Source: a virus
Taxonomy: Duplodnaviria > Caudoviricetes
Direction: 5' to 3' (one strand)
Virus record (IMG/VR): IMGVR_UViG_3300025759_000624
Location: 1 to 25,677 of that record
DNA length: 25,677 bases
In this document: piece after piece, positions 7,329 to 17,109 of the stretch
How positions within the stretch are numbered: position 1 is the first letter of the stretch
Layout: the number at the start of each line of letters is the position of its first letter
The notes under the pieces: model-generated
What the model was told of the DNA's origin: nothing
Database searches by the model: none
Seen by the model: the letters and a program-made list of their open reading frames with translations, nothing else
Made by a program: the position numbers and the translations under genes

Positions 7329-7618
7329 AGCATGTTGATCAAACAGGTCAAATAGATACGCTACGCTACGCCAATCAAATAAGTTTACTAAAAACTCATC
7401 AAGAGAGAATTAACTATATGTCTGATATAGATGAAAACTTTCATGATTTGGTGTATCTTTTAAGTATGCAGATGGCTATTCCTAAAACCATTGCGAACCT
7501 TCCAACTCGGGAAGAAAGAAAAAAAGCATGGGAAGAATTGCCAGAACATAATAAAACCATGAAGGGTATGAAAGACATGGTTTATCATAGAGTGATAAGG
7601 ATATTTAGAAAAAAATGA
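7325..7618 (+). CDS. Hypothetical protein
   Basis: 97-aa ORF, GTGA overlap upstream and ATGA overlap downstream. Confidence 0.7.
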   Translation: MKHVDQTGQIDTLRYANQISLLKTHQERINYMSDIDENFHDLVYLLSMQMAIPKTIANLPTREERKKAWEELPEHNKTMKGMKDMVYHRVIRIFRKK

Positions 7619-7797
7619 AAGGCGTAAATCATTACAAAAAAGATGGAACTATTTACAAAGGCGGAACGCATAAAATGCCAGATGGCTCTTTGCACTCTGG
7701 AGCAAGACATAGTTCTAGCAGCGTAAGACTTTTTCATTTTGGAGAACTGTCAAACAAATCTAAAACAAAAGCAAAAAATTCTTGGAGGAAAAAATAA
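7615..7797 (+). CDS. Small basic protein (HKMPDG motif)
   Basis: 60 aa, translationally coupled on both sides. Confidence 0.75.
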   Translation: MKGVNHYKKDGTIYKGGTHKMPDGSLHSGARHSSSSVRLFHFGELSNKSKTKAKNSWRKK

Positions 7798-7868
7798 TGG
7801 GCTATGGCAAAAAAATGGGTTATGGAAAACCAAAAAAAAAGAAAACTAAAAAAGGTAAAAAGAAGTAA
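7797..7868 (+). CDS. 23-aa Lys-rich peptide (not in ORF track)
   Basis: MGYGKKMGYGKPKKKKTKKGKKK; GGAGG RBS; TAATG overlaps at both ends. Confidence 0.65.
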   Translation: MGYGKKMGYGKPKKKKTKKGKKK

Positions 7869-7987
7869 TGCCTTTTAAAAAGTATTCTCCAAAACAAAAA
7901 AAATTAGCCAAGGTTGCAAAGCCTAGAAATAAAATAACAGGTGCTGATTTTAAAAAAATGAGAAAAGGAAGTGGTAAGAAAAAGTAG
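7868..7987 (+). CDS. 39-aa Lys-rich peptide (not in ORF track)
   Basis: MPFKKYSPKQKKLAKVAKPRNKITGADFKKMRKGSGKKK; TAATG-coupled. Confidence 0.65.
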   Translation: MPFKKYSPKQKKLAKVAKPRNKITGADFKKMRKGSGKKK

Positions 7988-8174
7988 CAAGCCTACAAAG
8001 AAAAAGTCTACGGTCAATTCTGCTGGCAACTATACCAAGCCAGAAATGCGTAAAAGATTATTCAATCAAATTAAGGCTGGGTCAAAGGGTGGTAGAGCTG
8101 GTCAGTGGTCAGCAAGAAAAGCACAAATGTTAGCCAAAAAATACAAAGCAAATGGCGGGGGTTATAGAAAATGA
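7971..8174 (+). CDS. Small basic protein, DUF5872-like N-terminal part
   Basis: YTKPEMRKRL...GG..GQWSARKAQMLA..YK..GGGY; family name recalled, not searched. Confidence 0.7.
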   Translation: MVRKSSKPTKKKSTVNSAGNYTKPEMRKRLFNQIKAGSKGGRAGQWSARKAQMLAKKYKANGGGYRK

Positions 8175-8314
8175 TTGGAAGATTATTTGATAAGTTTATA
8201 GAGTGGTCACTAAACAGACATGAACAACGAATAATGAAAAAAGAAACTCAAAAAAGAAAAACATCTAGAGTTAGAAGAAAAGCAAATGCAAAAAGAAAAG
8301 CAATTAAAAAATAA
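8171..8314 (+). CDS. 47-aa basic hypothetical protein (not in ORF track)
   Basis: MIGRLFDKFIEWSLNRHEQRIMKKETQKRKTSRVRRKANAKRKAIKK; ATGA overlap. Confidence 0.55.
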   Translation: MIGRLFDKFIEWSLNRHEQRIMKKETQKRKTSRVRRKANAKRKAIKK

Positions 8315-8332
8315 TTACACTTATTTAACATT

Positions 8333-8575
8333 ATGCCATTAAAAAAATCACAGAAATCACTTAAAATGTGGACCAAGCAGAAGTGGCGAACTGCTAGTGG
8401 AAAGAAATCTAGTAAGACTGGCGAAGTCTATGCTCCAGCAAGAACAATAGCAAAACTTAAATCTACAGCTAAAGGTAGAAAAAAGTTAGCACAGGCTAAT
8501 CGGGTAAAAAGAAAAGCAACCGCAAAAGGTAAACAGCATGCTAGACACGGATTACACAAGGGGAGGAAAAGATAA
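8333..8575 (+). CDS. Small basic protein, DUF5872-like C-terminal part
   Basis: SQKSLK.WTKQKWRT.SG...GEVY.P motif; very K/R-rich. Confidence 0.7.
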   Translation: MPLKKSQKSLKMWTKQKWRTASGKKSSKTGEVYAPARTIAKLKSTAKGRKKLAQANRVKRKATAKGKQHARHGLHKGRKR

Positions 8576-8919
8576 TGGCAACAACTAAAGACACAAAAAG
8601 AGTCTCTGGTGGTGTTATGTATCGAGGTAAGAAATATCCAGGATTTAACAAGCCAAGAAGAAACACAGGATCAAGCAAGCACAAAATGGAAGTGCTAGCA
8701 AAAAAAGGTAATGAAATTAAAGTTGTCAGATTTGGGCATAAAGATTATGGGCATAATTATTCTAGTAAAGCTAGGAAGTCTTATCTTGCACGATCCGCAG
8801 GAATCAAAAACAAATCAGGCGGGCTTACAAAGAATGATAAGTTCTCTGCGAACTATTGGGCGAGGAAGAAGCTCTGGGCTGGATCGGGGGGAAGTAAAAA
8901 AACTCCACCTAAAAAATGA
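8575..8919 (+). CDS. Basic hypothetical protein (VRFG...SYLAR...SANYW..LW type)
   Basis: 114 aa, TAATG-coupled. Confidence 0.75.
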   Translation: MATTKDTKRVSGGVMYRGKKYPGFNKPRRNTGSSKHKMEVLAKKGNEIKVVRFGHKDYGHNYSSKARKSYLARSAGIKNKSGGLTKNDKFSANYWARKKLWAGSGGSKKTPPKK

Positions 8920-9094: not shown

Positions 9095-9340
9095 ATGAGT
9101 AAGAAAGAAGACCTTATACAAAGGTTTCAGCAACAAGGATATGACAGGGTAAGCCTAAGATGGGTGCCAAAGAATCCTTATGGAAAGAAACATAAAGTAA
9201 GTGGATGGATTTATCCAAAGAATCCTTATGGAAAGAAACATAAAGTAAGTGGATGGATTTATAAACTTAGTGGTGACAGTGAATGGTCTAAACTAGGCAA
9301 CAACTATGAAGATGCTTTTAAAGAGATTGACTTAATATAG
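9095..9340 (+). CDS. Hypothetical protein with a 16-aa internal duplication
   Basis: MSKKEDLIQRF...; PKNPYGKKHKVSGWIY occurs twice. Confidence 0.65.
   Translation: MSKKEDLIQRFQQQGYDRVSLRWVPKNPYGKKHKVSGWIYPKNPYGKKHKVSGWIYKLSGDSEWSKLGNNYEDAFKEIDLI
9167..9262. repeat. 48-bp perfect tandem duplication, in frame
   Basis: 9167-9214 is identical to 9215-9262. Confidence 0.95.
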
Positions 9341-9568: not shown

Positions 9569-9597
9569 AAAAAAAAGCGGAGTAATTACCCCGCTTC
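9569..9597 (-). terminator. Intrinsic terminator ending the early operon
   Basis: Minus-strand hairpin GCGGGGUAAUUACUCCGC followed by about 8 U, just past the stop at 9611. Confidence 0.85.
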
Positions 9598-9610
9598 TTC
9601 AAATCATAGG

Positions 9611-9757
9611 TTACTTTTTCTTTTTATACTCCTCCTCGTATGTAGTAAACCTTCTTTTACATACCAGACATTCCCGTCTGCGTTTGTTAACTGATCCGTC
9701 AACATACTTGCGTACATCTACAACTCTGGAGTTGCCGCCACATTCTGAACAAGTCAT
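9611..9757 (-). CDS. Stand-alone NrdR-type zinc-ribbon protein, 48 aa, no ATP-cone (not in ORF track)
   Basis: [48 protein letters not shown] matches the NrdR N-terminus (CxxC, V.D.R, RRR.CxxC..RFTT.E); GGAGGTG RBS with TAATG coupling. Confidence 0.85.
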
Positions 9758-10086
9758 TACGCCACCTCCCATGGTTCGTAGTTTTGAAGCTCGTCTTCAT
9801 AATAGTATTCCATGCTCCAAACTGTTCTGGCATCCCACTTACAAGAAAAAACACCAGAGTCTTTAAGTTCATGAAAAAGCTTCCAAAACTTTTTAGACCT
9901 ATTTTGAACAACAGAGCTTCCAAAGTCTGAACAAACCATATGTGCAATTTCTCTTTTGTTCTGGGCATCTAAGAACTTTACTATTCTGTGCCTATCTTTC
10001 CAATCTATTGGTATGATCTTGTTGGTAGAACTTATGCCAAATTTTGACATATCGCCAGACACTGAAGCTAAACATAACTTTACCAT
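9757..10086 (-). CDS. Hypothetical early protein
   Basis: 109 aa, GGAGGTG RBS, TAATG coupling at both ends. Confidence 0.75.
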
Positions 10087-10451
10087 TACGCCACCTCCTC
10101 TGCTTCAGCTTTTTTCAAACACTTATTGACCCAAGCTAAAGATTTTTTTTCAGCCTCAGCTTCAGTGTTTGACTCTTCATTGAAATGATCTATGTAATGC
10201 TCAGCCATATTGACCCAAGCTAAAGATTTTTTTTCAGCCTCAGCTTCAGTGTTTGACTCTTCATTGAAATGATCTATGTAATGCTCAGCCATCCATTCAA
10301 TGCAGTCTTGTTTGCTTCCTGTCCACAGATTGCCATTGCTTAGGTACTGAACCTCCCAGAAAGGTTCGAACCCATCGTAGTCAGTGCTCATGCCATAGTG
10401 TGGCGTTCCTTTGTCAACAAAGTCTAACTCAAAACTTCCATCAATAATCAT
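10086..10451 (-). CDS. Hypothetical early protein with a 28-aa internal duplication
   Basis: 121 aa; GGAGG RBS; coupled to neighbours. Confidence 0.75.
   Translation of the reverse strand: MIIDGSFELDFVDKGTPHYGMSTDYDGFEPFWEVQYLSNGNLWTGSKQDCIEWMAEHYIDHFNEESNTEAEAEKKSLAWVNMAEHYIDHFNEESNTEAEAEKKSLAWVNKCLKKAEAEEVA
10125..10292. repeat. 84-bp tandem duplication, in frame
   Basis: 10125-10208 repeats at 10209-10292 (MAEHYIDHFNEESNTEAEAEKKSLAWVN twice). Confidence 0.95.
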
Positions 10452-10948
10452 GCAACATCCTCCTCTGCTTTATATTCCCACATATCAACATCACCAATAA
10501 GCTTTCTGGAAACAATATCCTTCAAGTTTTGAGTCAACCAGTAAGCATCAGATTGGACCCAGTTATCATCCTCGCAGGATTGGTACCTGTAGCAACTGAT
10601 CATGCCGTAGAGCTCCTTCTTGTTGACCCTAGGATATCCTTTGGTCTTAGCTTGGCATTGATTAACAAAGAGTAGGATCATACTCTCATCAAACTCGCCA
10701 TCCTTGCCTTCAGGGTTCCATGTAAAGAAACCCTTCCAGCTATCTGGATATCTAGCCTGCAAGCTTTTGATATTCTCTCTGGCTAATATCTCAGCCGCCT
10801 CTTGCGGGGAAGAAAAAGAAATCTTCTCCCTAGTCACCATGTTATAGGCATGAGTCACAAGATCATCACTAGCCATTGGCACACTACCATTAGCAAAGAA
10901 CTTACTCATCTCACCTATATGATCAGCATTACATAAAAACGCACTCAT
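10448..10948 (-). CDS. Hypothetical early protein (MSAF...N..S..ARY...CY.YQSCE type)
   Basis: 166 aa; GGAGGTG RBS; TAATG coupling. Confidence 0.8.
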   Translation of the reverse strand: MSAFLCNADHIGEMSKFFANGSVPMASDDLVTHAYNMVTREKISFSSPQEAAEILARENIKSLQARYPDSWKGFFTWNPEGKDGEFDESMILLFVNQCQAKTKGYPRVNKKELYGMISCYRYQSCEDDNWVQSDAYWLTQNLKDIVSRKLIGDVDMWEYKAEEDVA

Positions 10949-11115
10949 TATTTCACCTCCTGTAATTTCTTTTGTTCTTCACGAATCAAGTCAAAATAAA
11001 CTTGTACCTTTTTGATTCTTTCAGAGTCAAGCTTGTCAAACTTCTTGTCATACTCAAGATCAATTTCGTGTATGCGATCTAGACATCTTCTTATGTTTTT
11101 ATTTATTGTTTTCAT
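10948..11115 (-). CDS. 55-aa hypothetical early protein
   Basis: Likely start MKTINKN at 11115 after GGAGGTG, not the track's 11181. Confidence 0.7.
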   Translation of the reverse strand: MKTINKNIRRCLDRIHEIDLEYDKKFDKLDSERIKKVQVYFDLIREEQKKLQEVK

Positions 11116-11126
11116 TGTTGCACCTC

Positions 11127-11460
11127 CTATAATGCACTTGGTATTGTTCCAATTGGTTTTCCAAAACCTTCCCCGTACCATTCAGTAAATATTCGATCAT
11201 ATTGGTTTTCCAAGACCTTCCCCGTACCATTCAGTAAATATTCGATCATCTTCTTTTATTTCTTTTAAAGTCATGCCAAACATTTCTGCACATTCTCTTT
11301 GCCAAAAATCATGCAAATATTTACTTTGTTTTTTAGTAGGGCTTTTTTCTAGTTTAAATAATTTATAATCAACCCCATATTTTGTATGACATTCTAAAAT
11401 GTATGTCTTTTTCATTTTCTTGAATTGCTTTTGCAATTCTTGTAAATTTTCTGTTGTCAT
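11127..11460 (-). CDS. Hypothetical early protein with C-terminus disturbed by a 49-bp duplication
   Basis: Track ORF stops at 11197; removing one repeat copy extends it to GKPIGTIPSAL-TAG at 11127, overlapping the next RBS. Confidence 0.7.
11152..11249. repeat. 49-bp tandem duplication with one mismatch
   Basis: 11152-11200 versus 11201-11249 (ccaaaacc vs ccaagacc). Confidence 0.95.
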
Positions 11461-11699
11461 TATTTCACCTCCCTGATTTGTTTGACTTCTTTGGTAATAG
11501 CATCTGCCCTACCCATTAAAAATAATTCATAAACCTTTTCTCTGTCTAGGCTGTCTCCACCGCCCCAAAGATTAGGAAAATTTGTTTTATACATTTTTGT
11601 ATATTTACACGCCTCTAGGGGTGTTATGTCATCTCCACTATCACGATAAAAATCTAGAAAGTAAGAAACAAATTTAGAGTTCTGATTATGTAGGCTCAT
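11460..11699 (-). CDS. Hypothetical early protein
   Basis: 79 aa; GGAGGTG RBS; TAATG coupling. Confidence 0.75.
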   Translation of the reverse strand: MSLHNQNSKFVSYFLDFYRDSGDDITPLEACKYTKMYKTNFPNLWGGGDSLDREKVYELFLMGRADAITKEVKQIREVK

Positions 11700-11881
11700 T
11701 ATTCACCTCCTTGTGTTATTAAACCTTGTTCTATTAAATTAATTGCAGTTCTACCAAACCAGCCTTGAAGTTGCCAAGCCAGACCAGTGTCAACTAAGTG
11801 TTGCCATGCCTCTCTAACTTGATCCTCATGATCAGCTGGGATGAATCCCTCTGCAATACCTACAGCTGTGAAGTTATCCAT
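11699..11881 (-). CDS. Small phage protein (Q.L.DTG.AW.LQG.FGR.A..LI..G motif)
   Basis: 60 aa; motif familiar from phage early regions; GGAGGTG RBS. Confidence 0.8.
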   Translation of the reverse strand: MDNFTAVGIAEGFIPADHEDQVREAWQHLVDTGLAWQLQGWFGRTAINLIEQGLITQGGE

Positions 11882-12090
11882 TATTTCACCTCCTTTGATT
11901 TTGAATAATCAGTAGACTCAACTACTGTACAAATTGAAGCTGAATAAAGATTGTCTAGATCAAGCAATTTTTTGTATTCCTTGTCAGCATATTTTTTATC
12001 TTCGCAAAACATATAATGATCTTTGATCTTATCGCTATTTGGTATCCAATCACTCTTTCTTTCAGTCCAGACTAAAATATATCCATTCAT
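11881..12090 (-). CDS. Hypothetical early protein
   Basis: Likely start MNGYILVW at 12090 (GGAGGG RBS, ATGA overlap). Confidence 0.7.
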   Translation of the reverse strand: MNGYILVWTERKSDWIPNSDKIKDHYMFCEDKKYADKEYKKLLDLDNLYSASICTVVESTDYSKSKEVK

Positions 12091-12215
12091 GATTGCCCTC
12101 CAAAAGATAAAGCTATTGCAAGTGCCATTGATAATCCCACTGGCACACATATTATGATTGCGAATAAGATGTAAGTAAGTCTATCTCGTTTCGCTATTTC
12201 TTCTTTGTAAGTCAT
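12087..12215 (-). CDS. 42-aa single-pass membrane peptide (not in ORF track)
   Basis: MTYKEEIAKRDRLTYILFAIIICVPVGLSMALAIALSFGGQS; AAGGAGGG RBS just after hammerhead 1. Confidence 0.75.
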   Translation of the reverse strand: MTYKEEIAKRDRLTYILFAIIICVPVGLSMALAIALSFGGQS

Positions 12216-12236
12216 ATTCCCTCCTTTGGTTTGTTT

Positions 12237-12290
12237 GACTAAGACTGCCATTGCTGGCAGTTTCGCTCATTAAGAGCTCATCAGTTAGCC
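12237..12290 (-). ncRNA. Hammerhead ribozyme, type I (copy 1)
   Basis: GGCUAA CUGAUGA GCUC-UUAAU-GAGC GAAA CUGCCA-GCAA-UGGCAG UC^UUAGUC. Complete core, three stems, GUC triplet; cleavage predicted between 12243 and 12242. Confidence 0.95.
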
Positions 12291-12679
12291 TAAGAGTGAT
12301 ACCACATATCCCACTTCTGCACGATCTCATAAACATCGTACTCAGCATTATTCTGGATAGCTTCTTTAAGATCACCAAAGACTGCTGATCTATAATCCCA
12401 TCTATCTGGTTTGTTGATGGTGTAGCCCTTATCCATGAAGTAAGCATAGTCTTCAACTAGACCATGATCCTTGGATAGTTCCTTGGTGATCCACTTGACC
12501 ATGTCCATGGCTTGCTCATGAAATGATCTTTTGAGCTCAACATAGTTCAAGAAGTTAGTGTCCCCAAATTCAAGAACATCTGCTCCCTGTTGTTCAGCCT
12601 TGCCCATTATCTCAGTAGCAATAACCATTTCTCTTTCCCAAGATTCTTGGGCATCAGTTTTAGTATTTAAGTTTTTCAT
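12290..12679 (-). CDS. Hypothetical early protein, 129 aa, flanked by hammerheads
   Basis: AGGAGGG RBS; TAG stop overlaps the first G of hammerhead 1 stem I. Confidence 0.8.
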   Translation of the reverse strand: MKNLNTKTDAQESWEREMVIATEIMGKAEQQGADVLEFGDTNFLNYVELKRSFHEQAMDMVKWITKELSKDHGLVEDYAYFMDKGYTINKPDRWDYRSAVFGDLKEAIQNNAEYDVYEIVQKWDMWYHS

Positions 12680-12699
12680 AGTCCCTCCTAATTTTGTTT

Positions 12700-12772
12700 G
12701 ACTAAGACTGCCATTGCTGGCAGTTTCGCTCCCCGTAGGGAGTTTCGCTCATTGAGAGCTCTTCAGTTAGCC
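12700..12772 (-). ncRNA. Hammerhead ribozyme, type I (copy 2, with an extra GAAA-hairpin segment)
   Basis: GGCUAA CUGAAGA GCUC-UCAAU-GAGC GAAA CUCCC-UACG-GGGAG C GAAA CUGCCA-GCAA-UGGCAG UC^UUAGUC; cleavage predicted between 12706 and 12705. Confidence 0.85.
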
Positions 12773-13164
12773 TAGAAATTTAGCGAGAAACGCCCATCAT
12801 CTGACCACCAAGCAGATAATCTAATTTCGATAAGCTTGTCTTCCTTGCTTGAATATTCTTCAGCATCTTTGATCATATCTTTTACAATTTCTTTTGCTTG
12901 TTTTTTGGTTATGGTCAAATATTTGGTAAAGACATTTGGATAATATTTATCCTCATCGATAGACTCTTTTGTATATCCATCAGTCTTAATGTAAACGCAA
13001 ACACTAATACATTTCTGCATTCTAATAATCTTGTCCAGTTCTTTTGGTGTGACATGAATTTGACCTGAGTTTGTTTTGACTAGTTCGTCAGGGTTCTCAC
13101 CCCATCCTTTAGGCTCCATTCTTGTTGCTATTGCTTGTTCTATTCTTTTGTTTAATGCTTTCAT
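12772..13164 (-). CDS. Hypothetical early protein, 130 aa, flanked by hammerheads
   Basis: Likely start MKALNKR at 13164 after AGGAGGG (track extends into hammerhead 3); TAG stop overlaps hammerhead 2. Confidence 0.8.
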   Translation of the reverse strand: MKALNKRIEQAIATRMEPKGWGENPDELVKTNSGQIHVTPKELDKIIRMQKCISVCVYIKTDGYTKESIDEDKYYPNVFTKYLTITKKQAKEIVKDMIKDAEEYSSKEDKLIEIRLSAWWSDDGRFSLNF

Positions 13165-13184
13165 AGTCCCTCCTAATTTTGTTT

Positions 13185-13251
13185 GACTAAGACCATCTCG
13201 ATTCGCGGGGAAAAAAGATGGTTTCGACCAATCAGGTCTCATCAGTTAGCC
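13185..13251 (-). ncRNA. Hammerhead ribozyme, type I (copy 3)
   Basis: GGCUAA CUGAUGA GACC-UGAUU-GGUC GAAA CCAUCU-N17-AGAUGG UC^UUAGUC. Stems II and III differ from copy 1 by compensatory changes; cleavage predicted between 13191 and 13190. Confidence 0.95.
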
Positions 13252-13626
13252 TTGCACCTTTACAGGTTTACCTACAGTTGCTTTCCAAGAGATAGGATGC
13301 TTTCTAACTCCACTGTTGCCAATGTACTGATCAAGCACTGAGTCTAGCTCTTGCTTGTATTTCTCATGACCAGAATCAACGATCTCGTTTGCATGATCTA
13401 TCCATTGAGCAAACTTCTGTTCAGGGCTCATAGCAACCCAACGCTTGTTATCTAAATATTCAAATACTCCTTCTAGCATTCCAACATATGTTGTACCGCT
13501 TTCTGGTTTCTTTCCATATGCCCATGCATACATCAAATTAATGCTGGCAAGTGTAGGCTTATCGTTTGCATACTTCATAGCTGTAGTCATTCTGATGTTG
13601 TTAGATGTTTGTTTTATTGTGTCCAT
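13246..13626 (-). CDS. First gene of the early operon, hypothetical 126 aa
   Basis: Start MDTIKQ at 13626 after AAGGAGGG; TAA stop lies within hammerhead 3 stem I. Confidence 0.8.
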   Translation of the reverse strand: MDTIKQTSNNIRMTTAMKYANDKPTLASINLMYAWAYGKKPESGTTYVGMLEGVFEYLDNKRWVAMSPEQKFAQWIDHANEIVDSGHEKYKQELDSVLDQYIGNSGVRKHPISWKATVGKPVKVQG

Positions 13627-13667
13627 AATTCCCTCCTTTTTTGAAATCTTTTGAAACAATGATTCCA

Positions 13668-13696
13668 AATATAAGGGGTACGATATGTAGTGTCAA
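13668..13696 (-). promoter_or_regulatory. Near-consensus sigma70 early promoter
   Basis: TTGACA (13696-13691), 17-bp spacer, TATATT (13673-13668), with AT-rich sequence upstream. Confidence 0.85.
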
Positions 13697-14044: not shown

Positions 14045-14491
14045 ATGTTTTTTGGTCAAAAAGAATACGATGCAGTCTTAGAAAGATTTGCATATTTACC
14101 TGAAGCCACTCTTGGCAAACTTACAGTAAAAGATCATGTATTTTGGATCGCGGAGCGTCCTTGGCGGGGAAATAAAAAAGAGGTCAGCTGCATACCAAAT
14201 GGCACATATACTTGTAAGGCATACACAAGCAAAAGATTTGGAGAAACCTTTGAGATCGGTCAAACCTTTGAGATCACAGAGGTACCAAACAGAACCTATA
14301 TCCTATTCCATGTAGGAAACTTTCCAGAGAAAGATAGTCATGGCTGTCTACTTGTAGGATCATCATTGATGGCTGGCAAGCCAGCAGTATCTGCAAGCAA
14401 GAATGCAATGGCTAAATTCAGAGAGGTCTTACAGGGTGTCGAAAGCTTCGATATCGAAATCAAAGACTCAACTCCATACGACTGGTCATAA
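14045..14491 (+). CDS. DUF5675-family protein (candidate cell-wall enzyme)
   Basis: TLGKL...ERPW..N....SCIP.G.Y...VPNRTYILFHVGN...DSHGCLLVG; likely ATG at 14045. Confidence 0.8.
   Translation: MFFGQKEYDAVLERFAYLPEATLGKLTVKDHVFWIAERPWRGNKKEVSCIPNGTYTCKAYTSKRFGETFEIGQTFEITEVPNRTYILFHVGNFPEKDSHGCLLVGSSLMAGKPAVSASKNAMAKFREVLQGVESFDIEIKDSTPYDWS
14240..14275. repeat. 18-bp imperfect tandem duplication (GETFEI / GQTFEI)
   Basis: ggagaaacctttgagatc followed by ggtcaaacctttgagatc. Confidence 0.85.
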
Positions 14492-15498: not shown

Positions 15499-17109
15499 AT
15501 GCAATCTGAAAAAAATAAAATAAAAAAAATTATAAAAACCTTTAAAGCGAATCTCCCTCAATACGCTAAGCATTGTTTAAAAATTATAGATAAGCAGGGT
15601 AAATTAATAAGCTTTGAGTTTAACGAAGCACAAAAATTATTAGATAAACAGATTAATAAACAGTTAAAAGATCGTGGCAATGTTCGTATACTAATATTAA
15701 AGTCTCGTCAGACAGGTATATCTACCTACTGCCAAGCAAGAGGGTTCTGGAAAACAGTAACTGCACAGAATCCAAGAGGGTTCTGGAAAACAGTAACTGC
15801 ACAGAATCAGAATGCTGTTGTGGTATCCCATCTTAATGAATCTACTAAAGCTATTTTTAGTATGGTAAGAAACTTCTATGATAATTTACCGCACCCAGTT
15901 GTTACACCAGAGTTAAAAGAATCTACAAGTAACTCAATGGCATTTACACACGGATCTAGATGGAGAATCGCTACAGCAAGAACAGGTGAAGTTGGGAGGG
16001 GTTGGACAACAAACTATCTACATGGTTCAGAGGTAGCCTTCTATCCAAACTCAGATATTATCCCTGGTCTTTTACAAACAGTACCCGAAGCAGAGTCAGA
16101 AATATTATTAGAGTCCACCGCGAATGGAGCAGGAGGTTGGTTCTACGATGCGTGCATGAGAGCATTGCGTGGAGAGGGTGAGTGGGAAATATGTTTTATA
16201 CCTTGGTATATGATGAGTGAATATCGCAGGAAGGTAGATCCATACTTTGAGATAGAGCGTGAAGAGGAAGACGTAAAGACTATGTTCGGCTTAGACGATG
16301 AGCAAATAATGTTTAGGCGTTTAAAAATACAAGAGCTGGGTGGAGAAGATTTGTTTAGACAAGAGTACCCGTCTACCCCGCAGGAAGCGTTTTTAACAAC
16401 AGGTAGATTATTTGTTGAGCCGAAGTTTATAGATCAAGCAGCGGTTGAATGCTTTACCCCGATTTCCCGATACGATGTGCGAGAGAATGATTTCATGCCA
16501 CACGAAAAAGGGCTATTAAAAATTTTCGAGAATCCAAAGGATTCTTTGAGATATTGCATTGGTGTAGATGTTGCAGAAGGTTTGGAGCACGGAGACTATT
16601 CTTGCATCCAGGTGCTAGATCATATGGGCTACCAAGTTGCCACATGGACTGGGCACGTTGACCCGTTTGACTTAGCTCACATAGTTGCCAAGATTGCACA
16701 CTTCTACAATAAAGCTTGGACGCTCATTGAAAGAAACAACCACGGGCTTACCACCATCCGAAAAATACAAGAACTAAATTATCCTAATCTTTATGTAGAG
16801 CAAAGTGTAGATGATGCATATGTAGACCGCTTAACCAGACGTGCAGGTTTTTTAACTACAAGCAAGACAAAGCCCTTAATTATTGATAACTTAGTACACT
16901 TACTACGACAGGGAGAAAGTGGTATAGTAGATATAGAGCTCATTGACGAACTCAGAACATATGTCGTTGATGCCCGTGGAATAACAAATGCCCAGCAAGG
17001 GTGTTATGATGATAGAATAATGGCATATGCTATTGCTTTATTCGGATTGAACAGTATGCCTAGAAAACATAGGCAGAACTTTAAGAGAGTAAAGAAACAA
17101 TTTTTTTAA
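15499..17109 (+). CDS. terL: Terminase large subunit
   Basis: LKSRQTGIST (Walker A), LHGSEVAF (Walker B), ESTANG, RQEYP, IGVDVAEG and DDRIMA motifs. Confidence 0.95.
   Translation: MQSEKNKIKKIIKTFKANLPQYAKHCLKIIDKQGKLISFEFNEAQKLLDKQINKQLKDRGNVRILILKSRQTGISTYCQARGFWKTVTAQNPRGFWKTVTAQNQNAVVVSHLNESTKAIFSMVRNFYDNLPHPVVTPELKESTSNSMAFTHGSRWRIATARTGEVGRGWTTNYLHGSEVAFYPNSDIIPGLLQTVPEAESEILLESTANGAGGWFYDACMRALRGEGEWEICFIPWYMMSEYRRKVDPYFEIEREEEDVKTMFGLDDEQIMFRRLKIQELGGEDLFRQEYPSTPQEAFLTTGRLFVEPKFIDQAAVECFTPISRYDVRENDFMPHEKGLLKIFENPKDSLRYCIGVDVAEGLEHGDYSCIQVLDHMGYQVATWTGHVDPFDLAHIVAKIAHFYNKAWTLIERNNHGLTTIRKIQELNYPNLYVEQSVDDAYVDRLTRRAGFLTTSKTKPLIIDNLVHLLRQGESGIVDIELIDELRTYVVDARGITNAQQGCYDDRIMAYAIALFGLNSMPRKHRQNFKRVKKQFF
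15737..15808. repeat. 36-bp perfect tandem duplication in TerL, in frame
   Basis: caagagggttctggaaaacagtaactgcacagaatc occurs twice. Confidence 0.95.

What the first reader, a model, noticed from the sequence alone, without database searches (positions are those of the whole stretch)
12237..13251. Array of three hammerhead ribozymes punctuating a phage early operon
Seen: three minus-strand elements with the full core (CUGANGA, GAAA, GUC). Stem II (GCUC/GAGC vs GACC/GGUC) and stem III (CUGCCA/UGGCAG vs CCAUCU/AGAUGG) change while keeping pairing. Each begins at the upstream stop codon and cuts 26-27 nt before the next ATG, leaving the leader UUAGUC-AAACAAA-N-AGGAGGG. They occupy the first three junctions after a strong sigma70 promoter. 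Established: hammerheads leave 2',3'-cyclic phosphate and 5'-OH ends, 5'-OH RNAs are poor substrates for 5'-end-dependent RNase E, T7 cuts its early mRNA with host RNase III, and hammerheads are already reported in phage contexts. Inference: a protein-free mRNA-processing system giving uniform, insulated monocistronic early mRNAs. I cannot confirm whether this arrangement is undescribed.
Basis: partly seen in the sequence, partly recalled or inferred. Interest (0 to 1): 0.95.

Follow-up and report, generated by a model that had tools for sequence, protein, structure and literature searches.

The report
Three hammerhead ribozymes between phage genes
An uncultured aquatic phage has three intact hammerhead (self-cutting RNA) motifs at the first three gene junctions of one operon, which likely cut the message into single-gene pieces; this layout has been known in prophages since 2011, so this is a clean new example, and cultured SAR11 phages carry such motifs too.

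Summary
Confirmed: three type I hammerheads on the minus strand, predicted cuts after 13191, 12706 and 12243, each between a stop codon and a ribosome-binding site behind a conserved sigma70-type promoter. One correction: the middle copy holds 21 extra bases, two stem III alleles in tandem, most likely an assembly artefact. The motifs belong to a compact family (6-bp stem I, UNANU loop II), with an estimated 1,600 IMG/VR stretches, that scores below Rfam thresholds. 34 of 40 terminase-anchored relatives carry one to five copies in this operon, always on the sense strand. The arrangement is not new: Perreault 2011 (PMC3088659) described hammerheads flanking single prophage genes, proposed the same processing and showed cleavage. 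This scan found it before on other DNA (168 notes; e1-9712460 on a relative). Best reading: self-cleavage parts the early message into three one-gene RNAs and one ten-gene RNA; cleavage and purpose are untested here. Useful addition: 9 of 13 cultured T7-like pelagiphages examined carry hammerheads ahead of their RNA polymerase gene. New member of a known kind; interest 0.4.

The parts
13668..13696 (-). sigma70-type promoter (TTGACA-17-TATATT) with AT-rich upstream stretch; start of transcription inferred near 13661
   Evidence: 11 of 12 consensus bases; conserved in 12 of 12 relatives checked
13246..13626 (-). gene 1, 126 aa, unknown function; its stop TAA lies inside stem I of hammerhead 1
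   Evidence: no PHROG, Pfam or ESM Atlas hit
13185..13251 (-). type I hammerhead 1: stem II GACC/GGUC, loop UGAUU, long stem III, predicted cut 13191/13190
13165..13190 (-). leader 1 freed by the predicted cut: UUAGUC, A-rich spacer, AGGAGGG, 26 nt to AUG
12772..13164 (-). gene 2, 130 aa, unknown function (weak phrog_33541 only)
12700..12772 (-). type I hammerhead 2: stem II GCUC/GAGC, loop UCAAU, predicted cut 12706/12705; as assembled it carries two stem III alleles in tandem
12708..12728 (-). 21 extra bases in hammerhead 2, most likely an assembly concatenation of two alleles
   Evidence: absent from L298 and L287; single alleles in runs X1, X3, X9; five other such insertions in the window
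12290..12679 (-). gene 3, 129 aa, unknown function; relatives at about 50% identity occur without any hammerhead
12237..12290 (-). type I hammerhead 3: stem II GCUC/GAGC, loop UUAAU, stem III CUGCCA/UGGCAG, predicted cut 12243/12242
9614..12215 (-). block of ten small, closely coupled genes without hammerheads (mostly unknown; DUF7417, NrdR-like zinc ribbon)
9571..9600 (-). intrinsic-terminator-like hairpin with U tail closing the operon

Best explanation
The three elements are intact type I hammerhead motifs placed between a stop codon and the next ribosome-binding site, and they likely cut the operon's single, probably early, transcript into three one-gene RNAs of about 460-470 nt and one ten-gene RNA of about 2.7 kb. 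Shown: sequence, fold potential, placement, conservation. Inferred: host RNA polymerase starts near 13661; as each motif emerges, stems II and III fold, the weak 6-bp stem I closes, probably helped by a contact between the UNANU loop II and the unpaired A at the end of stem I, and the RNA cuts after GUC. Each upstream piece would end in two hairpins and a 2',3'-cyclic phosphate; each downstream piece would start with a 5'-OH and a 26-27-nt A-rich leader with a strong ribosome-binding site. Such ends are expected (recalled, not tested) to slow 3' exonucleases and 5'-monophosphate-dependent decay, so each gene gets its own stability and translation start whatever gene stands upstream. That would suit an operon whose small genes are swapped often.
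For: Fold beyond chance: 93 of 98 compact matches to a pattern that demands no pairing and 155 of 156 matches to a second one complete all three stems; on a 26-row MAFFT alignment 10 of 15 pairs change on both sides, 96% of cells pair against 26-37% when slid (rows were chosen by my scanner, so this is partly circular). Placement: of 180 motifs with enough flank, 154 have an upstream gene ending at the motif and 141 a ribosome-binding site and start within 60 nt (median 28), against 124 and 146 of 900 random places; read from the other strand only 3 of 180 have such a start. 34 of 40 terminase-anchored relatives have 1-5 motifs in this operon and none on the opposite strand; in five 88-100% complete relatives the family motif sits only in this operon. 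Position is kept while genes change. Equivalent triple arrays cleave in vitro and, for A. tumefaciens, in E. coli (PMC3088659, Results read).
Against: No cleavage, RNA end or strand was observed: the RNA runs are contigs only; X18 has one 207-nt contig inside gene 1, and relatives in X19 and X20 give contigs that run across hammerhead 1 uncut, which may be DNA or uncleaved RNA. Stem I is poorly formed in secondary-structure prediction for elements 1 and 3 (pair probability 0.04 and 0.11), and no known loop-bulge contact or pseudoknot is present, so cleavage may be slow or partial. The motifs are dispensable in parts of the lineage: 2 of 40 relatives (L304, L345) show none, one is too distant and short to judge, three have only altered copies (weak stem III, a base inserted after the core, a U-U pair), and L332/L350 have an insertion in their third copy. 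Nine relatives of gene 3 at about 50% identity have no hammerhead in the fetched flanks. Ten genes of the same operon do without them. The benefit to the phage is unknown, also in the literature read (PMC6765202).
Confidence: 0.68

Rival explanations
1. Cleavage serves to turn expression down or to time it: cutting uncouples or destabilises pieces, or happens only part of the time, gated by ribosomes that stop on the codon overlapping stem I, so that possibly toxic early proteins are made briefly.
For: The upstream stop lies at -4 to +7 of stem I in 132 of 154 cases, so a terminating ribosome would cover the motif; stem I is weak and competes with pairings to the leader; the freed 5' end can pair weakly near the start codon (own -2.3 vs permuted -2.04 kcal/mol, 3 of 200 permutations as low; related sequences confound it). 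PMC6765202 lists different stabilities or translation efficiencies as the proposed outcome.
Against: Strong ribosome-binding sites and A-rich leaders follow nearly every cut; the stop overlap is also what genome compaction gives, and the motif itself supplies TAA and TGA. No data on rates.
Confidence: 0.13
2. The repeats are kept mainly as DNA recombination handles for swapping single-gene cassettes, like the PeSL cassettes of T4-type phages; cleavage is secondary.
For: Similarity between the window and relatives often starts or stops at the motifs (13253, 12773, 12211); stem II and stem III alleles are reassorted among positions; two genes swap order between L318 and L332; depth of genes 1, 2, 3 differs within one run (64, 8, 22 in X2) and one contig joins hammerhead 1 to 3 through other sequence; the phage encodes a RecE-like exonuclease and an ERF annealing protein; PMC2839356 (abstract read) shows this for PeSLs.
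Against: Neighbour turnover is about the same at junctions with and without a motif: same downstream gene in 15 of 51 against 62 of 174 pairwise comparisons among 12 close contigs (pairs not independent). Recombination needs sequence identity, yet the stems covary while the catalytic core is kept. Contig breaks at short repeats are expected from assembly alone.
Confidence: 0.09
3. Pieces cut out between two tandem type I motifs are ligated into circular mRNAs, or spread as retrozyme-like RNA circles.
For: Tandem type I motifs leave compatible 5'-OH and cyclic-phosphate ends, and the two ends of genes 2 and 3 could re-form stem I (anatomy; retrozyme precedent in PMC7761336, passages). A host RtcB could ligate them (recalled).
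Against: No RtcB, RNA ligase (PF09414) or reverse transcriptase in 5 of 5 near-complete relatives. Perreault et al. looked for spliced or circular products of such arrays and found none. Many relatives have one motif only. A re-formed circle would hold an active ribozyme and reopen.
Confidence: 0.06
4. The motifs no longer cleave and act only as structured spacers (hairpins that protect 3' ends or pause ribosomes).
For: Weak predicted stem I; no Rfam match at gathering score; some relatives have altered cores.
Against: All core bases are intact in the three copies, and CUGANGA, GAAA and NUH (GUC 275, GUA 11 of 288) are kept while stems covary.
Confidence: 0.04

Closest known systems
Clustered hammerheads flanking single genes in prophages (Perreault et al. 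2011, PMC3088659; Results parts 1-2 of 3 and passages read)
   Same: Several hammerheads in a row between small, non-constant phage genes; proposed processing of a long transcript into single-gene or operon-length mRNAs; triple arrays from C. scindens, A. caulinodans and A. tumefaciens shown to cleave.
   Different: Here all three copies are one compact type I form with no pseudoknot, in an uncultured aquatic, integrase-bearing lineage; whether this form is in their Dataset S1 could not be seen (alignment pages not held).
RAGATH-1 hammerhead (Rfam RF03152), a type I variant
   Same: Type I topology, short stem I preceded by unpaired A, small loop II starting with U; weak match to element 3 (18.7 bits) and to pelagiphage copies (30-32 bits).
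   Different: Far below the gathering score of 56.3; the 5' hairpin of the model is not matched, because coding sequence runs up to stem I.
T7 early mRNA processing by host RNase III
   Same: One early transcript from host-polymerase promoters is cut between genes into hairpin-ended pieces.
   Different: Protein-free chemistry and 5'-OH / cyclic-phosphate ends instead of 5'-phosphate / 3'-OH; this phage is not T7-like (lambda-O-like initiator, DnaB, integrase), although T7-like pelagiphages have hammerheads in that region.
PeSL cassettes of T4-type phages (PMC2839356, abstract read)
   Same: Short repeated regulatory elements bounding variable small early genes; exchange by recombination between copies.
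   Different: PeSLs are promoter plus terminator; these are ribozyme plus ribosome-binding site, and turnover here is not higher at the repeats than elsewhere in the operon.
Retrozymes and other tandem-hammerhead circular RNAs (PMC7761336, PMC6155905; passages read)
   Same: Tandem hammerheads a few hundred bases apart release unit-length RNAs with ligatable ends.
   Different: Units here are different protein-coding genes in one operon, not repeats of one non-coding element; no reverse transcriptase or ligase in five relatives.

Membership tests
Hammerhead ribozyme, type I | Core CUGANGA, GAAA and NUH around a three-way junction | tested here: met
   All three copies; GUC 275 and GUA 11 of 288 family contexts
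Hammerhead ribozyme, type I | Stems I-III pair, with stem I open-ended and compensatory changes | tested here: met
Hammerhead ribozyme, type I | [quoted passage not shown] | tested here: inconclusive
   No extended helix I or pseudoknot seen; loop II U1 98 of 98, A3 90 of 98 and a 5'-flanking A 98 of 98 in loci whose search pattern did not ask for them suggest a non-canonical contact
Hammerhead ribozyme, type I | Site-specific self-cleavage leaving 2',3'-cyclic phosphate and 5'-OH | not testable with these tools
   Only contigs were available for RNA runs
Rfam hammerhead families (RF00008, RF03152 and clan CL00010) | Covariance-model score at or above the gathering threshold | tested here: not met
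   0 matches at E<=1 in the whole window; on 12190-12320 RF00008 22.1 vs 48.5 and RF03152 18.7 vs 56.3 bits
Clustered phage hammerheads (Perreault 2011) | Several hammerheads close together flanking single genes or short blocks in a phage or prophage | tested here: met
Clustered phage hammerheads (Perreault 2011) | Flanked genes are small and not constant between genomes | tested here: met
Clustered phage hammerheads (Perreault 2011) | All copies cleave within the polycistronic RNA | not testable with these tools
   Needs in vitro transcription
Retrozyme-like mobile RNA circle | Repeated non-coding unit between tandem hammerheads, mobilised by a reverse transcriptase | tested here: not met
   Units are distinct ORFs; no RVT_1 in 5 of 5 relatives
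PeSL-type recombination cassette | Promoter plus terminator in each repeat; gene exchange concentrated at the repeats | tested here: not met
   No promoter or terminator called in the repeats; turnover 15 of 51 vs 62 of 174 unchanged neighbours

The most novel reading that the evidence does not exclude
These are a distinct, very common compact type I hammerhead subfamily of aquatic phages that Rfam thresholds miss, held active by an undescribed contact between a UNANU loop II and an unpaired A at the end of a 6-bp stem I, and gated by the ribosome that terminates on the stop codon overlapping stem I; T7-like pelagiphages, among the most abundant marine viruses, would use such ribozymes in place of T7's RNase III sites to cut their early message.
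Probability: 0.2. Interest if true: 0.68.

Novelty: new member of a known kind. Interest (0 to 1): 0.4.

Why it matters
The purpose of hammerhead arrays in phages has been open since 2011. This locus adds no new kind of system, but it shows the layout is a stable trait of a whole aquatic phage lineage (34 of 40 relatives), defines a compact family with about 1,600 estimated IMG/VR stretches that standard Rfam annotation misses, and points to cultured T7-like pelagiphages (Eistla, HTVC019P, HTVC031P, HTVC109P and others) in which RNA ends can be mapped during a real infection, next to relatives that lack the motifs.

Tried and rejected
Rfam: no match for the whole window at E<=1, none at gathering score in 9 and in 10 related loci, so no other catalogued ribozyme fills the remaining junctions; my type II and III scans found none in the window. 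A four-way-junction or extra-hairpin variant for element 2 was considered and rejected as an assembly artefact. Function of genes 1-3: nothing useful from PHROGs, Pfam or the ESM Atlas. Host: no close cultured relative (best terminase match 35%, Roseobacter phage CRP-7); a stem-I-specific pattern hit only 6 of 185,579 GTDB genomes, none identifiable as host. Expression: three RNA runs held small shares as contigs only; they show neither ends nor strand. A leader-to-start-codon hairpin switch gave a small, confounded signal. A three-frame stop signal inside the motif was rejected: its own stops cover two frames. Whole-element folding z-scores are unremarkable (-0.2 to -2.2), as expected when stem I is weak. 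Perreault's Dataset S1 could not be checked for this family: the file is cut at page 300 of 1018 and alignments start at page 651. De la Pena and Garcia-Robles 2010 is not held and is known to me only through PMC6155905. Alignment A1 has one truncated row and two rows misaligned at the 3' end, left in the counts. Ten literature searches showed no paper on hammerheads in pelagiphages or on this compact family; the library lacks most subscription papers.

Full report
Observation. A descriptor scan for the hammerhead core with three pairing stems finds exactly three hits in the 25.7-kb window, all type I and all on the minus strand, with cores at 13245, 12766 and 12284. One of 200 dinucleotide shuffles gave one loose hit. 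The upstream stop codon lies inside stem I (gene 1) or overlaps its first G (genes 2 and 3). A TTGACA-17-TATATT promoter lies at 13696-13668. Such sites are not enriched in the region (11 found, 16.0 expected), but this one is the best and is kept at the same place in the 12 relatives checked. A terminator-like hairpin closes the operon at 9600-9571. Rfam finds nothing in the whole window at E<=1; on a 131-base stretch element 3 scores 22.1 bits with Hammerhead_3 and 18.7 with RAGATH-1-hammerhead, far below their thresholds.

Element 2 is an assembly composite. It has 21 extra bases (12728-12708): after stem II and GAAA comes one stem III hairpin, then a second GAAA and a second stem III. Near-identical contigs L298 and L287 lack exactly these 21 bases, and L144, L129 and L128 show a plain hammerhead there. 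In public runs, X1 spans the site with a 21-base gap and X3 with a 19-base gap, each leaving one clean allele; X9 has a third allele. The doubled form occurs in no fetched locus other than the window's own. The window has five more tandem insertions of 18-84 bases that relatives or run X1 skip. A real rare duplication is not strictly excluded without raw reads.

The phage. The record is a 49% complete linear viral contig with terminase, portal, major head protein, lambda-O-like initiator, DnaB, RecE-like exonuclease, ERF and integrase. Five near-complete relatives are 46-55 kb and all encode an integrase. Holders are marine and freshwater-labelled metagenomes of 13 studies. The host is unknown. 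The operon is transcribed away from the terminase block and holds 13 small genes, nearly all of unknown function. 'Early' is inferred from the promoter and this anatomy.

The family. A pattern that fixes only the 5' strand of stem I and the core gave 121 IMG/VR loci; of 114 distinct contexts, 93 of 98 compact matches and 1 of 16 long ones fold as complete hammerheads. A pattern free of stem I gave 133 loci from 5 of 64 parts of the collection, about 1,600 stretches estimated in all; 155 of 156 distinct matches fold completely, with up to 8 copies per locus. Across 288 distinct contexts stem I is exactly 6 bp in 266, an A precedes it in 280, AA follows it in 212, and stem II plus loop is 13 nt in 265. 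In loci whose pattern did not ask for it, loop II starts with U in 98 of 98 and has A at position 3 in 90 of 98. All three stems covary (the rows were picked by my scanner and include three badly aligned rows). I read the UNANU loop and the flanking A as a non-canonical loop II-stem I contact; this is inference. Perreault et al. note that many hammerheads lack the known contacts.

Placement. Of the 288 contexts, 180 had enough flank. In 154 an upstream reading frame ends within -30 to +13 of stem I, in 141 a ribosome-binding site and start follow within 60 nt (median 28), and in 123 both hold; random same-strand places give 124, 146 and 30 of 900, and the opposite strand gives 31 and 3 of 180. 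To avoid selecting on the motif I fetched relatives by terminase (79 loci); 40 had at least 3 kb upstream. 34 of these 40 have one to five hammerheads in the divergent operon and none has one on the other strand; several are near-duplicates, so independent lineages are fewer. Of the six without, L316, L324 and L357 have altered copies, L304 and L345 have none, and L375 is distant and short; L332 and L350 have a base inserted in their third copy. In five near-complete relatives the family motif occurs only in this operon. Nine homologues of gene 3 at about 50% identity have no hammerhead in their flanks.

Gene swapping. The slot structure promoter-gene-motif-gene-motif is kept while genes change, stem alleles are reassorted among slots, and two genes swap order between L318 and L332. 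Homology blocks often end at the motifs, and cassette depth differs within a run. But the hammerhead-free part of the operon is about as variable: the downstream neighbour is the same in 15 of 51 comparisons at motif junctions and 62 of 174 elsewhere. Recombination at the repeats probably happens, but it does not explain why the catalytic core is kept.

Mechanism. The most likely working is co-transcriptional self-cleavage into three one-gene RNAs of about 460-470 nt and one ten-gene RNA of about 2.7 kb (sizes, element 2 taken without the extra bases). Upstream pieces would end in two hairpins and a cyclic phosphate, downstream pieces would begin with a 5'-OH, A-rich leader. That these ends resist exonucleases and 5'-end-dependent RNase E, and that T7 uses RNase III for the same job, is recalled and was not read here. 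Against it: no RNA end was seen (the three RNA runs are contigs; two give relative-derived contigs that cross hammerhead 1 uncut), and stem I is weak in folding predictions. Rivals are down-tuning or translation-gated cutting (0.13), recombination handles (0.09), circular RNAs (0.06; no RtcB, RNA ligase or reverse transcriptase in 5 of 5 relatives) and inert spacers (0.04).

What is known. Perreault et al. 2011 (PMC3088659; passages, Results parts 1-2 of 3, supplement searches and the first part of Dataset S1 seen) state that multiple hammerheads flank single genes or short blocks in prophages, infer processing into single-gene mRNAs, show cleavage of three arrays in vitro and of one in E. coli, and found no circular or spliced products. 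PMC6155905 (passages) and PMC6765202 (passages) repeat this and call the role open. PMC7761336 and PMC13725137 (passages) list type I hammerheads in phage DNA as known. PMC2839356 (abstract) is the precedent for repeat-mediated cassette shuffling. This scan's earlier notes hold 168 findings of the kind in at least 156 genomes, one on a look-alike of this locus; they are unchecked and I use them only to say that the layout is common.

A BLAST of element 3 against cultured phages led to T7-like pelagiphages. I scanned two whole genomes and the stretch from record start to the RNA polymerase gene of twelve more records that I chose from the list. Nine of 13 Pelagibacter phages (Eistla, HTVC168P, 031P, 142P, 109P, 019P, 022P, 021P, 201P) have one to three hammerheads of types I, II or III there, all on the sense strand; HTVC121P has a core-like sequence that failed the scan; HTVC120P, 200P, 119P and Roseobacter phage CRP-125 have none in the part read. 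In the two whole genomes they occur only in this region. The search 'pelagiphage' plus 'ribozyme' listed two unrelated papers (listing only), and the scan's notes have no entry with all those words; the library is incomplete, so this is not proof of absence.

Verdict. It is a new member of a known kind: clustered phage hammerheads. Interest 0.4, mostly for the uncatalogued compact family and the cultured pelagiphage test cases; the boldest reading (new tertiary contact, ribosome-gated cutting, ribozymes in place of RNase III sites) has probability 0.2 and would deserve 0.68.

Noticed in passing
window 9167-9262, 10124-10292, 11166-11249, 14244-14275, 15737-15808, 276-320: Tandem insertions of 18-84 bases that double stretches of proteins (for example in the terminase); those checked are absent from near-identical contigs or skipped in run X1, so the record seems to concatenate alleles at assembly bubbles. 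Other findings on this window should be read with that in mind.
   Followed up: partly
L122:8787-10110 (Pelagibacter phage Eistla), L123:488-1290 and 39716-39780 (HTVC168P), L377, L378, L379, L380, L381, L382, L387: Unannotated type I, II and III hammerheads between the small genes ahead of the RNA polymerase gene of cultured T7-like pelagiphages; 9 of 13 examined.
   Followed up: partly
L122:8100-8300: The leader before Eistla's first early gene looks structured (long pairing arms, A-rich linker) where HTVC168P has a type III hammerhead; no Rfam match at gathering score. Possibly another ribozyme or processing signal.
   Followed up: no
L327 and L328, 2-3.2 kb upstream of terminase: Relatives at 86% terminase identity use type III hammerheads at the first junctions instead of type I, some with altered stem II or core, beside a type I copy with a 50-nt stem III.
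   Followed up: no
L332, L350, L061, L324, L357: Copies with one base inserted between the core and stem II (CUGAUGAU) in two different gene contexts, and one with a U-U first pair of stem II; either tolerated variants or decay.
   Followed up: partly
L148 and L152 (Daejeonella spp.): A type I copy of this family and a type III hammerhead about 200 bases apart in two Bacteroidota genomes, one a cultured type strain (DSM 24536); four more GTDB genomes, two of them archaeal MAGs, hold one copy.
   Followed up: no
L178/L179 (IMGVR_UViG_3300006924_000032): At least eight pattern matches within 4 kb, the largest array among the loci fetched.
   Followed up: no
window 13221-13193 and relatives: Many stem III helices pair a pyrimidine strand with an SD-like purine strand (GGGGAG, GAGGAGG) and some carry a UUUUCCCC loop resembling an anti-SD; meaning unknown.
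   Followed up: no
window 9600-12215: Junctions in the hammerhead-free block share a GGAGGUG-N-AUAAUG stop-start motif, and genes there are gained and lost as freely as in the hammerhead part.
   Followed up: partly
window 7615-8919: A run of very small, highly basic lysine/arginine-rich ORFs on the plus strand, of unknown role.
   Followed up: no
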